Below, piece by piece: positions 3,847-11,540 of a stretch of DNA of 16,245 nt. The notes below the pieces were generated by a model. The model was not told where the DNA came from. It ran no database searches and saw only the letters and a list, made by a program, of their open reading frames with translations. Location of the stretch: assembly GCA_050944155.1 (NCBI GenBank), contig JBMNQN010000018.1, forward strand, positions 1 through 16,245, in the 5' to 3' direction. The translations under genes and the position numbers were made by a program. Within the stretch, counting starts at the first letter, position 1; every line of letters starts with the position of its first letter. The DNA is from Candidatus Methanomethylophilaceae archaeon. Lineage in GTDB: Archaea; Thermoplasmatota; Thermoplasmata; Methanomassiliicoccales; Methanomethylophilaceae.

Positions 3847-3957
3847 ATGAAGCAGAGTACCAAAAACAAAATCTTTGCCTTGGCCGTAGTGCTCTTCATG
3901 GTCGGTGCAGCTTTTGTTACTGCTATTGCAGTGTTTTATGAAGGTTGGACGAACTAA
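3847..3957 (+). CDS. Small single-pass membrane protein, 36 aa (not in ORF track)
   Basis: MKQSTKNKIFALAVVLFMVGAAFVTAIAVFYEGWTN*: basic N-terminus, ~22-aa uninterrupted hydrophobic helix, aromatic C-terminal cap; promoter-like element upstream. Confidence 0.65.
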   Translation: MKQSTKNKIFALAVVLFMVGAAFVTAIAVFYEGWTN

Positions 3958-4082: not shown

Positions 4083-4126
4083 TGATATTAATTAAGTAAG
4101 TAGCTAAATCAACTTAATTAATATCA
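4083..4126. repeat. Perfect 15-bp inverted repeat with 14-bp spacer
   Basis: TGATATTAATTAAGT (4083-4097), spacer AAGTAGCTAAATCA, ACTTAATTAATATCA (4112-4126). Confidence 0.9.
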
Positions 4127-4356: not shown

Positions 4357-4403
4357 ATTTTTTGGAAAAAATGACATTTTTTGGAAAAAATTGCTATTTT
4401 TTG
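4357..4403. repeat. Tandem ATTTTTTGGAAAAAAT repeats, 19-20 bp period
   Basis: Exact 16-mers at 4357-4372 and 4376-4391; partial ATTTTTTG at 4396-4403; related ATTTTTTGGAAAATTG at 4040-4055. Confidence 0.7.
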
Positions 4404-4714: not shown

Positions 4715-4788
4715 AAAACATGCATTTTAATTTTAAAAAGTCCCTAAAAACATGCATTTTATTTTTTTAAATGTATGAAAAACATGCA
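4715..4788 (+). repeat. Three-copy direct-repeat array AAAACATGCA(TTTTA), exact 32-bp period, just upstream of the ATPase-1 promoter
   Basis: Copies start at 4715, 4747 and 4779; the first two share 15 nt, the third 10 nt. TATA-like AATAAATAT at 4814-4822. Confidence 0.85.
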
Positions 4789-4840
4789 AAATTCATTGGC
4801 CAGCACGCAAGCGAATAAATATCTATCAAGCGTTCTTTGA

Positions 4841-6193
4841 ATGATGCTCAAGAGAAAGATCTACGGACAGCTTGAAAAATGGAAATCCGACAAGAGAGGA
4901 ACATGTCTGATGATAAGGGGTCCCAGACAGGTCGGAAAAACATATGCAGTAGATCATTTCGGAAAAGAGAATTACGAAAATTATCTCCATGTCAATTTTG
5001 AGCTGCAGCCGGAAGTAAAAGAAGCGTTCTCCGGAAATTTGGATGTGGAGACCGTTACAAAGAAACTTACGGCGTATTTTCCGGATTTTATTTTCGAAGA
5101 AGGCAACACTCTGATTTTTTTTGACGAGATCCAGATGTGTCCGGAAGCCCGCACATCTCTCAAGTCATTCGCAACAGACGGCAGATATGATGTAATCGCT
5201 ACCGGATCCCTTCTGGGAATAATTTTTAAGCAGACCACTGGTACGCCGATGGGGTACGAAACTCAGGTAGATATGCATCCCCTGGATTTCGAAGAGTTTC
5301 TCTGGGCAAACGGATACAGGGAAGAATTCACCGAAGATCTGAAAGAATCGATATCGAAGAAAAAACCGCTGGGAAGCGCAATACTCTCGACAATGAATGA
5401 GAAGTTCAGAGAACATATGATTGTGGGAGGTATGCCTAAGGCAGTCGACAGGTTTGTCAAAGAAAACAGCTTCGGCGCAGCACAGGCAGCTCTCAGAGAT
5501 ATTTCCGATATGCAGAGAACCGATGTTATAAGATACAGTTCTCAGCCGGATAAGGTGAAGACGCTGGCCTGTCTGGAATCCGTTCCCGCACAGCTAACAA
5601 ACACAAATAAAAAATTTACATATGCAAACATAAACGGTGACGGAAGTGCGCCCTCTCGTAAATACGAAGGAAATCTGCTTTGGTTACACGATGCGGGAAT
5701 AATATCTTATTGCCACAACATTACCGAACCGAAAATTCCTCTGGCCTCTAAAAAAATCACAGATTCCTTTAAAATCTACATGAGGGACACTGGTCTTTTG
5801 ACACTTTCCTACGGAGATTCTGCAAGAATCGCCCTTGCCATAGGCAAAGGCGGAGAAAACAAAGCTTCTGCCAGTGAGGGAGCAATTACCGAAAACGCTG
5901 TCGCAGACATGCTTTATAAGAACAATATTCCGCTTTATTACTACAAAAAAGGCGGCAAGGAAGTGGATTTTGTCACAGAATTGGGGCTTGATACAGCCCT
6001 GATCGAAGTAAAATCCGGTTCGTACGGCAGGTTTCCTTCGTTAGATTACGTCGCTGAAAAATACGGTGCCGACAGAAGAATCGTATTAGGCTATCACGAT
6101 ATAGGTGTCGACACAGAGGGACGGGAATATTATCCTTTGTTTGCCGCCGCCTTCATAAAGTCCATGACGGACGAGAAATATGCCGGACTCTGA
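4841..6193 (+). CDS. AAA+ ATPase (AAA_14) with DUF4143 and C-terminal PD-(D/E)xK-like motif (COG1373-type)
   Basis: Walker A GPRQVGKT, Walker B IFFDEIQ, ATGS, PLDFEEF, GGMP, KIYMRDTGL, EN.V, EVDFV, IEVKSG. The start could be 4844. Confidence 0.88.
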   Translation: MMLKRKIYGQLEKWKSDKRGTCLMIRGPRQVGKTYAVDHFGKENYENYLHVNFELQPEVKEAFSGNLDVETVTKKLTAYFPDFIFEEGNTLIFFDEIQMCPEARTSLKSFATDGRYDVIATGSLLGIIFKQTTGTPMGYETQVDMHPLDFEEFLWANGYREEFTEDLKESISKKKPLGSAILSTMNEKFREHMIVGGMPKAVDRFVKENSFGAAQAALRDISDMQRTDVIRYSSQPDKVKTLACLESVPAQLTNTNKKFTYANINGDGSAPSRKYEGNLLWLHDAGIISYCHNITEPKIPLASKKITDSFKIYMRDTGLLTLSYGDSARIALAIGKGGENKASASEGAITENAVADMLYKNNIPLYYYKKGGKEVDFVTELGLDTALIEVKSGSYGRFPSLDYVAEKYGADRRIVLGYHDIGVDTEGREYYPLFAAAFIKSMTDEKYAGL

Positions 6194-6195
6194 CG

Positions 6196-7473
6196 TCAGT
6201 TCCTGAGAGCCGTAACGGGAACCACGTACACCCCGTCTTCCCGTCTGTAGGCGGCGGAAGAAAGCCCGCAGATTACGCACAATACGTCGGGCTTTTCACT
6301 GTTCCGGGTTCCTTCTATTTTTTCCTCGAATTTAATGAGGTTTTCCGCTGCCTCATCGATACGGTTGGCTCCGAGTTTTATTTCGAATGCACCCCATCTT
6401 TTGTCCGGGAGCTCCACAATGGCATCAATTTCGCGCCCTTCTCCGTCTCTGTAATGAAATACCTCGGCCCCTAAAGACTCGGCATAAACCGTCAGATCCC
6501 GTATACACATCGATTCGAAAAGAAAGCCGTAGGTGTTCAGATCCTTGGACAGTTTTTCGGGAGTGGCTCCGAGGGCCGCTGCAGCGAGGGACGGGTCGGT
6601 AAAACGTCTTTTGGGCGATTTTCCGACTCTTACGGAAGAACGCATACCCGGGTTGAAAGAAAGCTGTTTTTCTATGATATACAGGCGTTCCAGAACGTTC
6701 AGATAATCCGCTACGGTCTGTACGGATATTTTTTCCGCATCTGTTTCTTCCATGTCTTTCGCAAGGGTGCTGTTACTTACTACTGTGCATTCGTTTCGAG
6801 ATATGGATCTTACGAATGCCCGCATCTTGTTAAGGTCTCTTCTTTTACCGTCCGTTTTTACCGTGCATTCGTTCAGAATAGTCCGCAGATATTTTTTGGA
6901 CGCTTTCTGCGATTCGTAGGAACTCTTTCCGATGGTGTCAGGCCATCCGCCTCTAACCGTCAGGCCTATCATTTCTTTGAGCGTTTTTTCACCAGTAAAA
7001 CAATTCTCGAAAACGTTATCAAATAGACCTTGTAACGAAACGTCTCCCGAGGAATCTCCTGACTCATACAGAGACATGCTGCGCATCCTTATACTGCCGA
7101 TTCTTCCGGCACCGCTGTGCATTATTCCTTCGGTTTTCGGCGTCGCGGAACCGGTCAGAATGAACATTCCTTTCTCGGCATTTTCATCTACTTTGAATCT
7201 TACGGCATCCCATATCTTAGGAACTTCCTGCCATTCATCAATCAAACGAGGGGATTTTCCGTCTAAAATCAGGGCAGGATCGAGTTCTGCCATGGATTTA
7301 CTCTGTGATTTCGAATCATTGATGTACACTGCACTGTTGGCATTGTTGAGGCCTGTCCAGGTTTTTCCGCACCACTTAGGGCCCTCTATGCTCACGGCTC
7401 CGAACAATCTGAGATATCTTTCAATCTGTCCGTCAGCTATGCGCGGCATGTAATTTTTCGGTTTAAGGGACAA
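6196..7473 (-). CDS. Second AAA_14/DUF4143 ATPase, different subfamily (GPKWCGKT type)
   Basis: Y.PRI.D, Walker A GPKWCGKT, LIDEWQ, ILTGS, GGWP, KRRFTDPSL, FES, EIDAIV, FEIKLG. TTG start with GGAGGA Shine-Dalgarno at 7488-7483. Confidence 0.88.
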   Translation of the reverse strand: MSLKPKNYMPRIADGQIERYLRLFGAVSIEGPKWCGKTWTGLNNANSAVYINDSKSQSKSMAELDPALILDGKSPRLIDEWQEVPKIWDAVRFKVDENAEKGMFILTGSATPKTEGIMHSGAGRIGSIRMRSMSLYESGDSSGDVSLQGLFDNVFENCFTGEKTLKEMIGLTVRGGWPDTIGKSSYESQKASKKYLRTILNECTVKTDGKRRDLNKMRAFVRSISRNECTVVSNSTLAKDMEETDAEKISVQTVADYLNVLERLYIIEKQLSFNPGMRSSVRVGKSPKRRFTDPSLAAAALGATPEKLSKDLNTYGFLFESMCIRDLTVYAESLGAEVFHYRDGEGREIDAIVELPDKRWGAFEIKLGANRIDEAAENLIKFEEKIEGTRNSEKPDVLCVICGLSSAAYRREDGVYVVPVTALRN

Positions 7474-7508
7474 TGATTTTTATCCTCCGATTAATAATGA
7501 ATCTTACT

Positions 7509-7571
7509 AGTTAAAGGTTTTCGGAGTTTTCAGTTAAAGGTTTTCGGAGTTTTCAGTTAAAGGTTTTCGGA
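7509..7571 (-). repeat. Perfect 23-bp tandem repeat x2.7 at the ATPase-2 promoter; each unit contains a BRE/TATA-like core
   Basis: AGTTAAAGGTTTTCGGAGTTTTC at 7509-7531 and 7532-7554, plus 17 nt at 7555-7571. The minus strand reads TCCGAAAACCTTTAACT three times. Confidence 0.92.
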
Positions 7572-7716: not shown

Positions 7717-8604
7717 TCAGTCCACGATACGGAATCCTTTGTTTTCCGAATCTTCGTCCGAATTGAAGCGGATGTGTCTGTCGCGAAGTATGCTCGTTAT
7801 GGTTTTCACGTGAACCCCCAACCCCACGTTAAGAAACTGATTTTCCACAACGGTTTTTCCTTCGTATTCGACGGTGGGGTGGAATCCCAGAGGCTGATGC
7901 GCGGTCTGTACCTGCATGGCGCAGATTCTGCCCTCTTTGTCGTATATCGGCCCTCCCGACTGCCCTTTAAGGCCCGGAGTTGACGTTTCCACGTAAAGCA
8001 TCTCGTAATTTCCGTCGATGCTCCGCCCCTTCATCACGTTGCGTGTGTGCATTCCTTCGTTGGGGAACAGGGGCATTGGGAGGACTCCCTTTCTGATTCT
8101 GAACGTGCCGGAAGCTTCGTCGAAGTCGCTCCCCACCTCTATGAACGGGAAACCGAGTCTGCAGAGGCTGGTTCCCGGGCGCATGGTATCCGGGTTCCTG
8201 AATACGGGATATTCTTTAATCCATGAGGGGTCGAAGGGTTCCAGTTTTCCTACGGCAATATCTATCTGACGGTTCACATAGGCGTTTACGAGTCTTACGC
8301 CGTCCCATCCCCACCAGAACGAATGGTTGGTTATCCAAGTGGGGTCGGTTTTCAGAAAGTTGCGGGGGCTCCCGGATATTTCGGAATGTTTGGCGTTGAG
8401 TTCGTTGATTTCTTTGATTTTGTTCTGATCCGACTGGAATTTGACGTAAGAATCGAAAAGATGTCCGGCGGTTATGATCCAGCCTTCGTCGTTTATCACA
8501 GAAAAGGCTCCGCATCCCGCTTCCACTTTTCCGCTGTAGAGGCGGGTCGAGATTATGACGGGACGTACGAATTTGGCAGCTTTGCTGCAGGCATCCGCAA
8601 ACAT
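7717..8604 (-). CDS. Trypsin-like (S1/Trypsin_2) serine protease with no signal peptide
   Basis: Catalytic triad contexts ITAGH, DIAVGKL, GQSGGP; hydrophilic N-terminus; no PDZ domain apparent. Confidence 0.85.
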   Translation of the reverse strand: MFADACSKAAKFVRPVIISTRLYSGKVEAGCGAFSVINDEGWIITAGHLFDSYVKFQSDQNKIKEINELNAKHSEISGSPRNFLKTDPTWITNHSFWWGWDGVRLVNAYVNRQIDIAVGKLEPFDPSWIKEYPVFRNPDTMRPGTSLCRLGFPFIEVGSDFDEASGTFRIRKGVLPMPLFPNEGMHTRNVMKGRSIDGNYEMLYVETSTPGLKGQSGGPIYDKEGRICAMQVQTAHQPLGFHPTVEYEGKTVVENQFLNVGLGVHVKTITSILRDRHIRFNSDEDSENKGFRIVD

Positions 8605-9456: not shown

Positions 9457-10821
9457 TCAGTTCAGCGCCGAGAGCCCTTTTTCGGTTGCGCGGTATTTCT
9501 GGTTCCTGCTGGTGGGTTTTTCGCAGGTTCTTTCCACATAACCGTCTGCCATGGCAGGTTCCAGATAGTTGGCCATGAACGTGGGTCTGTGCTTGAATCC
9601 CAGTCTATGCATCAGTTCTTTGGCCGAGGCCTCTTCTTCGCCTATGGCGGTCAGCAGAGCCGCGGTACGGAATTCCCTGGTTCTGGCATCTCTGTCTTTC
9701 AAATCTCCAGACTCGGTGACGAAAAGGGGAGCGCATTCCTGCGGTTTTTCCGGTGTTTCGGCAGGCGCAGCCACGGTATCTTCTCCGATCGATTCCGTCT
9801 TCGGAACCGCCGAGAAAGTAACCGAAAAGTCCTCTTTGGTGACTCCGAATGAAATTTCGCGGTTTCCGGATTCGGCGCACGCGGCGTTCATAATCGGAAT
9901 GCCCGAACCCATGAGCCTCATCATTCCCGCTCTGGCGAAAATGTCGGCGAGTGCGGGGTTTGCGGGTCTGGATACTTCTTCGGACAGGTGCCTGTTCCTG
10001 TTGAATCCGCCCGGGTTGTATATCACGAGGCGGTCTTTGTAGACTTTGATCTGAATGGGCCCGCCTGCGGTGTAATCCTTGTGGGCGACCGCATTGATAA
10101 CCGCTTCCTTCACGGCATCCATGGGATATTCCCCGTCGGAAAGGTACTTTTTCTTCAGAACTTTCATGACCTTTTTGGGCTGAAGGAAAACCGGGCCGGA
10201 AATAACGTCGATGTCGTCTGCCGGTCCGGCGGCGGAGAATCTGCCTATGCGGATTTCCGGAGCGACCGCAAACTGGCTGGGATCGGGATGGAACAGAATC
10301 AGAGCGGACCCTCTGAGCATGCCCTTGTCCATGAGTCTCAGGGACTGGAACAATTCCGTGTCGTCGGTCTTTTTCGGTATTCCCGCGGCCGAACGGAACT
10401 CCGAAACGGCGGTTTTGTCCAAATCTTTGACGGCAACGCCGGGAACGAGAAGATTGAGTCTGGATCTGCTGTCTTTGAGCAGAATGAATTTTTCCAGGTC
10501 GTCCCCCGTAAGCTCCCTGTCTTCTTTTCCTATGCGTCTGAAATACTTTCCGTTGACGCACACGGGTTCGGGGCTGGGTTTCACGTCGATTACGACGCAG
10601 GCGCGTCCCCTGGACTCGGACGGGCGTATGTGGGGAGATATGTCCAATGCGCCGCTGACTTCATTCGAAATGGATACCGCAAGGGACGCGGCTTCGTCCA
10701 GCGAGTACGAGTCGGCTTTGCCGATAACCAGACGTCCGCCGTAAGAGTTCGCAAATGCACAGACTGTTCTGAGATGTTTGGTCTTCCATTGCTTCTTGGA
10801 GTCGGATATCTGATCGGGCAT
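9457..10821 (-). CDS. Schlafen/AlbA_2 + HATPase_c_4 + C-terminal winged-helix protein ('RecG C-terminal / transcriptional regulator' family)
   Basis: VCAFANSYGGRLVIG (AlbA_2); YP..AVKEAVINAVAHKDY, I.NPGG, NP.LA..F, GSGI (HATPase_c_4); C-terminal ELM..LG.KHR.TF..NYL.P...G..E.T..KPTS.NQKY. Start re-called to ATG 10821 because the longer ORF overlaps the next gene and its intergenic region. Confidence 0.8.
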   Translation of the reverse strand: MPDQISDSKKQWKTKHLRTVCAFANSYGGRLVIGKADSYSLDEAASLAVSISNEVSGALDISPHIRPSESRGRACVVIDVKPSPEPVCVNGKYFRRIGKEDRELTGDDLEKFILLKDSRSRLNLLVPGVAVKDLDKTAVSEFRSAAGIPKKTDDTELFQSLRLMDKGMLRGSALILFHPDPSQFAVAPEIRIGRFSAAGPADDIDVISGPVFLQPKKVMKVLKKKYLSDGEYPMDAVKEAVINAVAHKDYTAGGPIQIKVYKDRLVIYNPGGFNRNRHLSEEVSRPANPALADIFARAGMMRLMGSGIPIMNAACAESGNREISFGVTKEDFSVTFSAVPKTESIGEDTVAAPAETPEKPQECAPLFVTESGDLKDRDARTREFRTAALLTAIGEEEASAKELMHRLGFKHRPTFMANYLEPAMADGYVERTCEKPTSRNQKYRATEKGLSALN

Positions 10822-10845
10822 AATCGGGAATCGATTTCCCTGATA

Positions 10846-10861
10846 ATTAACTTTAGTTAAT
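10846..10861. promoter_or_regulatory. Palindrome over the likely promoter of the AlbA_2 gene
   Basis: ATTAACT-TT-AGTTAAT, 25-40 nt upstream of ATG 10821 on the minus strand. Confidence 0.45.
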
Positions 10862-10895
10862 ATATCGGCGTCCGAATATATATAAAAAAAAAGTT

Positions 10896-11540
10896 TTACG
10901 CAGTATCTCCGTATTTTACGGCCCTGAAACATACCCAATTCTTGTCCGCAAGGGTGTGTACTTCCGTTTTCAGGTTCATGCTTTCGAGCATGGATTCCAT
11001 CTCTTCGTTCTTTACCAAAACGAATCCCGTTCTTTCCGCTCTGTTTCTGTTGCGTTCGTCGAAAAGCGGATGGGGGTATTGTTCGGAAACTATCATGAGA
11101 ATCCCTCCGTCTTTAAGAACGCGTTTCAATTCTTCCAGGGATTCTTTCAGATTTGGCCAGAAGAAGTATGTTTCCACGGCGGTAATCAGATCGAAAGTGC
11201 CGTCGGGATACGGAAGATTGTCCACCGACGCTCTGTCTATTCTGCATCTTCCCTCCGCAATGGTTTCGGCGTTGACTTCCGAAGACAGTTTACACGCTTC
11301 TTCCGACAGGTCGGCGCCGTAAAGAAGAGCGCTCGGAAACCATTCTCCGAGTTTTTTAAGGAACATTCCTCCGCCGCACCCTACGTCCAGAATGCTTTTC
11401 GGAGTGAAATTTACGGGAATCAGCGAGACTGCCCAATCTCCCAGTTCCGAGTGGTGGCTGTTCATGGATTCCAGGGCCTTTCTGCCTTCTTCTCCTCTGG
11501 GATCCCCAAAACTGAAAAATTCCGGCGGTTTTCCTTCCAT
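10896..11540 (-). CDS. Class I SAM-dependent methyltransferase
   Basis: ILDVGCGGG, GADLS, LPY.D.TFDLITAVET.FFW, RVLK.GG. Start re-called to ATG 11540; GAAAAATGTTTTA promoter-like element upstream. Confidence 0.87.
   Translation of the reverse strand: MEGKPPEFFSFGDPRGEEGRKALESMNSHHSELGDWAVSLIPVNFTPKSILDVGCGGGMFLKKLGEWFPSALLYGADLSEEACKLSSEVNAETIAEGRCRIDRASVDNLPYPDGTFDLITAVETYFFWPNLKESLEELKRVLKDGGILMIVSEQYPHPLFDERNRNRAERTGFVLVKNEEMESMLESMNLKTEVHTLADKNWVCFRAVKYGDTA

What the first reader, a model, noticed from the sequence alone, without database searches (positions are those of the whole stretch)
4715..7571. Tail-to-tail AAA_14/DUF4143 ATPase-nuclease pair, each gene headed by its own three-copy direct-repeat array
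Seen: two divergent members of the same ATPase superfamily converge with 2 bp between their stops. Both have three direct-repeat copies at the promoter (AAAACATGCA, 32-bp period; AGTTAAAGGTTTTCGGA, 23-bp period). The arrays are unrelated to each other, and no other gene in the window has one. Established: these proteins combine an AAA+ ATPase, a helical/wHTH-like middle region and a PD-(D/E)xK-like tail, are patchily distributed, and have no defined function. Inference: each protein may bind its own iteron-like array (autoregulation, or the cis site of a one-gene selfish or defence module), so 'repeat array + ATPase-nuclease' would be a co-evolving unit.
Basis: partly seen in the sequence, partly recalled or inferred. 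Interest (0 to 1): 0.8.

Follow-up and report, generated by a model that had tools for sequence, protein, structure and literature searches.

The report
Self-operator repeat arrays before defence-candidate ATPase-nucleases
Two neighbouring archaeal genes of a very common but untested ATPase-nuclease family each have their own short run of DNA repeats at the promoter, likely the docking site of the protein each gene encodes; their tail-to-tail arrangement is incidental, and the repeats give a direct experimental handle on the family.

Summary
Both genes are AAA_14+DUF4143 (COG1373, PADLOC candidate PDC-S01) ATPase-nucleases from different clades, and both arrays beat 1000 of 1000 shuffles. All 4 family genes in this genome have an array. 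The only other high scores among 747 genes are two neighbours sharing those arrays and one orphan array.

In homologues the period follows the protein clade: 23 bp in clade B (53 of 55), 32-34 bp in clade A (42 of 52). The repeat sequence is private to each gene. In clade B it co-varies with one residue of the predicted winged-helix recognition helix; this is strong in-sample but mixed in held-out loci. In bacterial relatives the last box fills the -35/-10 spacer. Best reading: each array is likely its own protein's operator and assembly site (autorepression).

Against the wider claim: arrays are not family-wide (other clades more often carry palindromes), covariation in clade A is weak, and the tail-to-tail pairing is not conserved. 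Binding, nuclease activity and defence are untested. I found no paper on the pairing, but this scan reported it earlier on other DNA, including another locus of this genome.

The parts
4715..4788 (+). Array A: three boxes AAAACATGCA (14 bp shared by the first two), period 32, diverged spacers; likely operator of gene A
   Evidence: clade-A relatives have periods 32-34
4807..4822 (+). Putative archaeal BRE/TATA-like element about one array period after the last box and about 20 bp before the ATG (inferred from sequence only)
   Evidence: sequence; archaeal promoter consensus recalled, not tested
4841..6193 (+). Gene A: AAA_14 + DUF4143 ATPase / predicted winged helix / PD-(D/E)xK nuclease, clade A, PDC-S01
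6196..7473 (-). Gene B: AAA_14 + DUF4143 ATPase / predicted winged helix / PD-(D/E)xK nuclease, clade B, PDC-S01 (TTG start; ATG at 7449 is the alternative)
6685..6723 (-). Predicted recognition helix of gene B's winged helix (residues 251-263); residue 252 (Q, codon 6718-6720) is the position that co-varies with the repeat in relatives
7484..7488 (-). Shine-Dalgarno-like GGAGG before the TTG of gene B
   Evidence: sequence
7509..7571 (-). Array B: perfect 23-bp unit, 2.7 copies (three 17-bp boxes); likely operator of gene B, the last box possibly overlapping the core promoter

Best explanation
Each gene encodes an ATPase with a predicted winged-helix domain and an intact-looking PD-(D/E)xK nuclease domain, and the repeat array in front of it is likely that protein's own binding site, where several copies would sit side by side over the promoter and repress their own gene. 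Shown: the arrays, their enrichment, the clade-fixed period, sequences private to each gene, conserved catalytic residues, and the position at the core promoter in bacterial clade-B relatives. Inferred: the winged helix reads the box, the period reflects the footprint of one ATP-linked protomer (about 23 bp in clade B, 33 bp in clade A), and binding represses transcription to keep a potentially toxic nuclease low. Array plus gene behaves as a one-gene cassette that arrives and is lost at variable sites. A and B are two independent cassettes that landed in the same hotspot after aroA. The downstream job of the nuclease, most likely defence or selfish persistence, is not shown.
For: Genome control: 4 of 4 family genes score 30 bits or more; the other 3 of 747 genes that do are two neighbours sharing those arrays and the orphan array, and the best unrelated score is 28. 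Homologues at 20 bits or more: clade B 87 of 94 (all period 23, 24 or 46), clade A 48 of 59 (47 at 32-34), control 28 of 747. Tree: clade B 53 of 55 period 23, clade A 42 of 52 period 32-34. Family-picked sample at 25 bits or more: B 6 of 6, A 6 of 10. Viral-contig B loci: 12 of 16 at 20 bits or more, all period 23. In clade B, unit identity rises from 11 to 16 of 23 with protein identity (rho 0.55); the excess signal peaks in windows starting at residues 241-251, and residue 252 gives the top coupling. Residue 252 lies at the start of helix 251-263 of a helix-helix-helix-wing order. D/E at 252 goes with [GC]G in 32 of 33 units against 1 of 26 for N, and E with T at the next variable base in 16 of 16. 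The code recurs on separate branches, and independent pairs go the same way in 5.8 of 7 and never the opposite way (median p 0.03). A TAnnnT hexamer starts 4 nt after the last box in 33 of 55 bacterial B arrays, so that box fills the -35/-10 spacer. Closest solved folds are the archaeal ATPases SSO1545 and PAB2304 and DNA-bound Orc1/Cdc6. Clades without direct arrays more often carry palindromes (19 of 50 and 20 of 38 against 17 of 250 controls).
Against: No binding or expression data exist. The residue-base traits were chosen after seeing the data; three of the four pair tests gave p 0.06-0.125. In held-out viral-contig loci only 1 of 4 scored D/E proteins showed [GC]G with automatic phasing, though 0 of 8 others did. 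Clade A shows no overall covariation (rho 0.05, p 0.19; a rise only above about 50-60% identity, 30 pairs). The window's own residue (Q252) belongs to a class of 3 with three different triplets. The winged helix is read from secondary-structure order and weak hits, and whole-protein TM-scores to solved structures are only 0.2-0.45. Array A ends about 25 bp before the putative TATA instead of overlapping it. Much of clade B is 80 best hits of one query, mostly Bacillota, so rows are kin.
Confidence: 0.62

Rival explanations
1. Guard or addiction module with a DNA antitoxin: the array holds the ATPase-nuclease in an inactive assembly, and loss, degradation or titration of the array (virus-driven DNA breakdown, DNA mimics, cassette loss) frees or activates the nuclease and kills the cell. 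This extends the operator model and does not exclude it.
For: Nuclease and ATPase catalytic residues are conserved in both clades. The family is a PADLOC defence candidate found by embedding in defence loci. Fold relatives include STAND/NLR immune ATPases. Up to 32 paralogues per related genome, with distinct units within a genome (8-14 of 23 identical). An orphan array persists without its gene.
Against: PDCs are untested. One paralogue in this genome is frameshifted while its array is perfect. 16 of 41 related genomes had no match. Nothing here shows toxicity.
Confidence: 0.18
2. The array is a cis site for the cassette's own mobility or replication, like iterons for Rep or ORBs for Orc1/Cdc6: the protein loads on it and nicks or opens DNA to move or amplify the cassette.
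For: Orc1/Cdc6-DNA structures rank among the top fold matches. Cassettes sit at variable sites: after aroA in 2 genomes with different clade members and strands of context, beside a tRNA-like gene end, and as a 230-bp insert between Hef and ligase that 15 of 15 same-genus genomes lack.
Against: No integrase or transposase was seen beside the pair, and no target-site duplication was seen by eye at the orphan insert. The last box sits in the core promoter in bacteria, which a regulator explains more simply.
Confidence: 0.1
3. The arrays are neutral or promoter-strengthening tandem duplications of the promoter (23 bp equals the -35 hexamer plus a 17-bp spacer), produced by slippage and not bound by the protein.
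For: The bacterial unit length matches sigma-70 geometry. Archaeal clade-B units are nearly identical to each other (median 0.93 against 0.74 in bacteria), as recent duplication would give.
Against: The 23-bp period persists in archaea with fully changed sequence. Clade A keeps 32-34 bp in both domains. Other promoters of the genome lack arrays. The unit co-varies with one protein helix.
Confidence: 0.07
4. The array is transcribed into a guide RNA or is a CRISPR-like memory that programs the nuclease.
For: A repeat array next to a nuclease gene.
Against: Units within an array are identical or differ only in AT-rich linkers, so there are no distinct spacers. The B unit has 0 exact matches in viral contigs. 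Each unit occurs only in its own array in the genome.
Confidence: 0.03

Closest known systems
PADLOC phage-defence candidate PDC-S01 (COG1373; Pfam AAA_14 + DUF4143)
   Same: Both proteins match PDC-S01 models (A E 6.5e-127, B E 1.3e-59); single-gene ATPase fused to a PD-(D/E)xK domain, as PMC12988326 describes (passages).
   Different: The passages I saw describe no cis element. PDCs are untested candidates (bioRxiv 10.1101/2024.01.29.577857, passages; 'S01' does not occur in its main text, supplements not seen).
Archaeal Orc1/Cdc6 with origin recognition boxes beside its own gene
   Same: ATPase plus winged helix; PDB 2qby is among the top Foldseek matches (B rank 4, A rank 11). Repeated boxes next to the initiator gene (recalled).
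   Different: C-terminal nuclease domain; many paralogues each with a private direct array of fixed period; low whole-chain TM-scores (0.22-0.29); no evidence of an origin.
Plasmid iterons and Rep initiators (recalled: RepA, pi, TrfA)
   Same: Direct repeats near 2-3 helical turns apart bound by a winged helix, with autorepression of the rep promoter (recalled).
   Different: Chromosomal one-gene cassettes with an ATPase and a nuclease; no replicon evidence; no Rep family hit.
Archaeal STAND-type ATPases SSO1545 (2fna) and PAB2304 (2qen), and NLR/CED-4 ATPases
   Same: Best structural matches of both models (TM by query 0.40-0.45).
   Different: No sensor repeats; a DUF4143 nuclease tail; I know of no operator array described for them (recalled; listing only).

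Membership tests
COG1373 / PDC-S01 (AAA_14 + DUF4143) | N-terminal AAA_14 and C-terminal DUF4143 above curated cut-offs; match to PDC-S01 models | tested here: met
COG1373 / PDC-S01 (AAA_14 + DUF4143) | Intact Walker A/B and PD-(D/E)xK catalytic residues | tested here: met
   B K37, D79, E80, R124, E320, D350 in 90 of 90, E364 89, K366 88; A K32, D94, E95, E350, E388 in 50 of 50, D375 48, K390 49
Validated antiviral defence system | Protection against a virus or plasmid | not testable with these tools
   PDCs are described as untested; validation pending for most PDCs
Autoregulatory operator array (iteron-like) | Direct repeats of fixed period at the gene's own promoter, enriched over other genes | tested here: met
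Autoregulatory operator array (iteron-like) | Repeat sequence co-varies with the DNA-reading helix | tested here: inconclusive
   strong in-sample for clade B, mixed in held-out loci, not seen overall in clade A
Autoregulatory operator array (iteron-like) | Cognate-specific binding and repression | not testable with these tools
   needs EMSA and a reporter
Orc1/Cdc6 with ORB origin | Membership of the Orc1/Cdc6 family by sequence | tested here: not met
   no Cdc6/Orc1 family among Pfam or NCBIfam hits and no PDB sequence match; fold resemblance only
Orc1/Cdc6 with ORB origin | Origin activity | not testable with these tools
   none
CRISPR or other guide array | Constant repeats separated by distinct, foreign-derived spacers | tested here: not met
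   identical units; 0 exact viral matches for the B unit
Two-gene system (A+B pair) | Conserved tail-to-tail pairing across genomes | tested here: not met
   second family gene in 2 of 80 bacterial B loci and 1 of 67 metagenome A loci; no other close A+B convergent pair; only B after aroA in G015

The most novel reading that the evidence does not exclude
PDC-S01 proteins are array-guarded immune or addiction nucleases. Each assembles as an ATP-linked row on a private DNA array whose period is fixed by the clade and whose sequence is set by a few recognition-helix residues. The array acts as a DNA antitoxin, so losing or titrating it triggers the nuclease. Rapid re-duplication of the unit would let dozens of mutually orthogonal paralogues coexist in one genome, and the specificity would be reprogrammable by point changes.
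Probability: 0.18. Interest if true: 0.88.

Novelty: new variant of a known kind. Interest (0 to 1): 0.62.

Why it matters
PDC-S01 is reported as the fourth most common defence candidate in prokaryotes (about 39,000 detections in PMC12988326, passage seen) and has no tested function. A predicted cognate DNA site for each protein gives a substrate for binding, ATPase and nuclease assays, and suggests that cloning the gene without its array could be toxic or misleading. A clade-fixed period with a residue-level code would also supply many natural orthogonal protein-operator pairs. This window is a convenient natural swap control: two unrelated arrays and two distant proteins side by side, plus two more pairs and an orphan array in the same small methanogen genome.

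Tried and rejected
Conserved A+B tail-to-tail system: rejected.

Family-wide direct arrays: rejected; in 61 genes picked by family only, arrays at 25 bits or more were B 6 of 6, A 6 of 10, C 0 of 7, other clades 9 of 38 (my notebook's '10 of 38' was a miscount).

Virus-derived unit: 0 exact matches of the B unit in viral contigs; the other units were not searched there.

Copy-number variation of array B: repeat-unitig depth was 2.2-3.2 times the flank in three runs but about 1.4-2.2 times in four others; inconclusive.

Homodimer prediction for B: no verdict.

No PDB relative by sequence beyond short P-loop hits; no NCBIfam family. The ESM Atlas search of residues 195-305 gave only unnamed or low-score HTH leads. 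VIA-align fold searches could not be run because the machine was busy, so the winged helix has no domain-level structural match. No gene relic was found near the orphan array or in the 880-bp spacer before gene A.

Literature searches with no description of the arrays in the listings: DUF4143+repeat, DUF4143 (20), COG1373 (21), PDC-S01 (23), AAA_14+tandem repeats+upstream (70), MNS/STAND terms (71, 0 papers), Pfam accessions (81, noise), guilt-by-embedding (82), a six-term search (128, 0 papers), SSO1545 (129).
Full report
OBSERVATION. Gene A (4841-6193 +, 450 aa) and gene B (6196-7473 -, 425 aa) converge with 2 bp between the stops. Both carry AAA_14 and DUF4143 and match PADLOC PDC-S01, but they barely align. 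Array A has three AAAACATGCA boxes at period 32 with different spacers; array B is a perfect 23-bp unit in 2.7 copies. Neither score was reached in 1000 dinucleotide shuffles. Independent sequencing runs cover the locus with no differences listed inside the arrays: three for the whole stretch and four more for array B. The host is a small archaeon; the closest named relative of gene B is from a Methanomassiliicoccales bin (62%), so that order is my inference.

OWN GENOME. The 1.04-Mb assembly has four DUF4143 genes. The other two, on contig C7, each have a perfect 23-bp array of 3.7 copies with an unrelated sequence; one of those genes is frameshifted. I scored the 300 bp upstream of 747 called genes for periodic repeats. 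Seven reach 30 bits: the four family genes, two neighbours sharing those arrays, and an orphan 23-bp array on C19; the best unrelated score is 28. The orphan lies in a roughly 230-bp insert between the Hef and DNA ligase genes that 15 of 15 same-genus genomes lack. By eye its unit fits the clade-B frame, and no gene relic is near it. Each unit occurs as an array only once in the genome.

HOMOLOGUES. From 275 loci I found 323 family ORFs. I dropped 48 (26 without a Walker A motif, 15 with short upstream DNA, 7 without a start), and 203 remained after removing near-duplicates at 90%. At 20 bits or more: B-like 87 of 94 (79 at period 23, 4 at 24, 4 at 46), A-like 48 of 59 (47 at 32-34), C-like 19 of 50 (15 at 39-42), against 28 of 747 control genes. 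On a tree of 156 of the 192 full-length proteins (bacterial B rows cut to 25 of 61), clade B has period 23 in 53 of 55, clade A 32-34 in 42 of 52, and clade C about 40 in 15 of 42. Held-out sets agree for A and B: 12 of 16 non-redundant B loci on viral contigs, all period 23, and B 6 of 6 and A 6 of 10 at 25 bits in 61 genes picked by family alone. That sample also limits the claim: clade C 0 of 7, other clades 9 of 38. Those clades more often have a palindrome within 150 bp of the start (19 of 50 and 20 of 38 at 15 bits, against 17 of 250 of the 374 control genes with long spacers). A cis site may therefore be general while its geometry depends on the clade.

COVARIATION. For 81 clade-B arrays, unit identity rises from 11 to 16 of 23 with protein identity (rho 0.55). 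After removing that trend the signal peaks in windows starting at residues 241-251, and residue 252 gives the top coupling to unit positions. The model of B (pLDDT 94) has helices 214-226, 234-245 and 251-263 followed by strands 267-270 and 288-291, the order of a winged helix, with 252 at the start of the third helix; the winged-helix label is my reading. D or E at 252 goes with [GC]G in 32 of 33 units and N in 1 of 26; E goes with T two bases on in 16 of 16 and D in 4 of 17. The combinations recur on distant branches, for example in archaeal paralogues L012, L013, L017 and L032, an E protein nested among N proteins (L138), and an N protein nested among D proteins (L197). Independent-pair tests on a tree without that region never went the wrong way on average but are small: median p 0.03 for one trait, 0.06-0.125 for three, all chosen after the fact. 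The held-out test was mixed: 1 of 4 scored D/E proteins and 0 of 8 others had [GC]G under automatic phasing. Clade A showed no overall trend (42 arrays, rho 0.05).

PROMOTER POSITION. Clade-B arrays end a median of about 30 bp before the start codon. In 33 of 55 bacterial members a TAnnnT hexamer begins 4 nt after the last box, and many show a TTG-led hexamer 17 bp before it, so the last box fills the -35/-10 spacer (promoter consensus recalled). Archaeal members show no single TATA offset. Archaeal units are more uniform than bacterial ones (median adjacent identity 0.93 against 0.74), which suggests recent re-duplication. For gene A, a TATA-like element lies about one period after the last box (sequence only).

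PROTEIN. Walker A/B and nuclease residues are conserved in both clades, and clade B has an invariant arginine at 124, the likely arginine finger; the corresponding position in clade A is variable. Foldseek's best matches are SSO1545 and PAB2304, then Orc1/Cdc6 on origin DNA, ORC, CED-4 and plant NLRs, at whole-chain TM-scores of 0.2-0.45.

CONTEXT. The pair is not a unit. A second family gene occurs in 2 of 80 bacterial B loci, 1 of 67 metagenome A loci and 18 of 120 archaeal loci, mostly in tandem, and no other close A+B convergent pair was seen. Of 11 same-genus aroA regions fetched, one (G015) has a family gene after aroA: a B-type gene on the + strand whose perfect 23-bp array starts 8 bp after the aroA stop. 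The trypsin-like gene next to B is followed by other variable genes in relatives. Genes A and B (44% and 48% GC) and the spacer (27%) are below the flanking genes (52-53%). The simplest history is two separate arrivals of array-plus-gene cassettes at a variable site.

MECHANISM. Most likely (0.62), each protein binds its own array through the winged helix, several protomers in a row at a clade-fixed step, and represses its own promoter. Rivals: the array as a DNA antitoxin of a guard or addiction nuclease (0.18), a cis site for mobility or replication (0.10), neutral promoter duplication (0.07), and a guide array (0.03). Binding, repression, nuclease activity and defence are all untested.

LITERATURE. 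[quoted passage not shown] PMC13356809 (passages): the most frequent single locus in rumen genomes. PMC3424549 (passage): DUF4143/COG1373 is a PD-(D/E)xK family of unknown function. bioRxiv 10.1101/2024.01.29.577857 (passages): 145 untested PDCs; its supplements, where PDC-S01 is presumably listed, were not seen. Two other DUF4143 preprints mention it only in passing (passages). Ten searches showed no description of the arrays in the listings or passages I saw; the library lacks most subscription papers.

EARLIER SCAN NOTES. Earlier notes of this scan describe the 23-bp and 33-bp arrays, the operator reading and a one-residue code on other DNA, including another locus of this genome. I had the operator reading before consulting them; the residue test and the attention to orphan arrays were prompted or encouraged by them and checked here.

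VERDICT. A real feature and a local instance of a widespread, apparently unpublished pairing of private operator arrays with PDC-S01 ATPase-nucleases. The tail-to-tail arrangement is incidental. Novelty: new variant of a known kind. Interest 0.62.

Noticed in passing
G000:C19:5905-6013 (L294): Orphan 23-bp array of 4.7 copies in a roughly 230-bp insert between the Hef helicase and DNA ligase genes, absent from 15 of 15 same-genus genomes; it fits the clade-B frame, and no family gene or relic is near it.
   Followed up: yes
G000:C7:2063-3450 (L295): B-type family gene split by a frameshift, with a still perfect 23-bp array of 3.7 copies.
   Followed up: partly
G000:C7:48990-50464 (L296): B-type gene with a perfect 23-bp array ends next to what looks by eye like the 3' end of a tRNA-Leu gene, a common integration site.
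   Followed up: no
window 3847-3957 (+): 36-aa ORF with a hydrophobic stretch after aroA; possible small membrane protein.
   Followed up: no
window 4083-4126: Perfect 15-bp inverted repeat with a 14-bp gap in the AT-rich spacer; possible regulator site or element end.
   Followed up: no
window 4357-4403: 19-20-bp near-palindromic AT-rich unit in 2.4 copies; it could be a leftover operator of a lost clade-C gene (speculative; no relic found).
   Followed up: partly
window 7717-8604 (-): Trypsin-like gene (68-85% identical where found in the genus) whose downstream side holds different genes in relatives, some by eye methyltransferase- or helicase-like: a variable hotspot.
   Followed up: partly
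window 9457-10938 (-): Schlafen/AlbA_2 + HATPase_c_4 + Fic-like C-terminal protein, a type often found in defence or mobile regions (recalled).
   Followed up: no
L086, L092, L066 upstream regions: Clade-A arrays with alternating units (odd and even copies more alike), suggesting duplication of unit pairs.
   Followed up: no
L383-L437 and clade-C loci: Family clades without direct arrays often have long palindromes just upstream, or two palindromic boxes 39-42 bp apart.
   Followed up: partly
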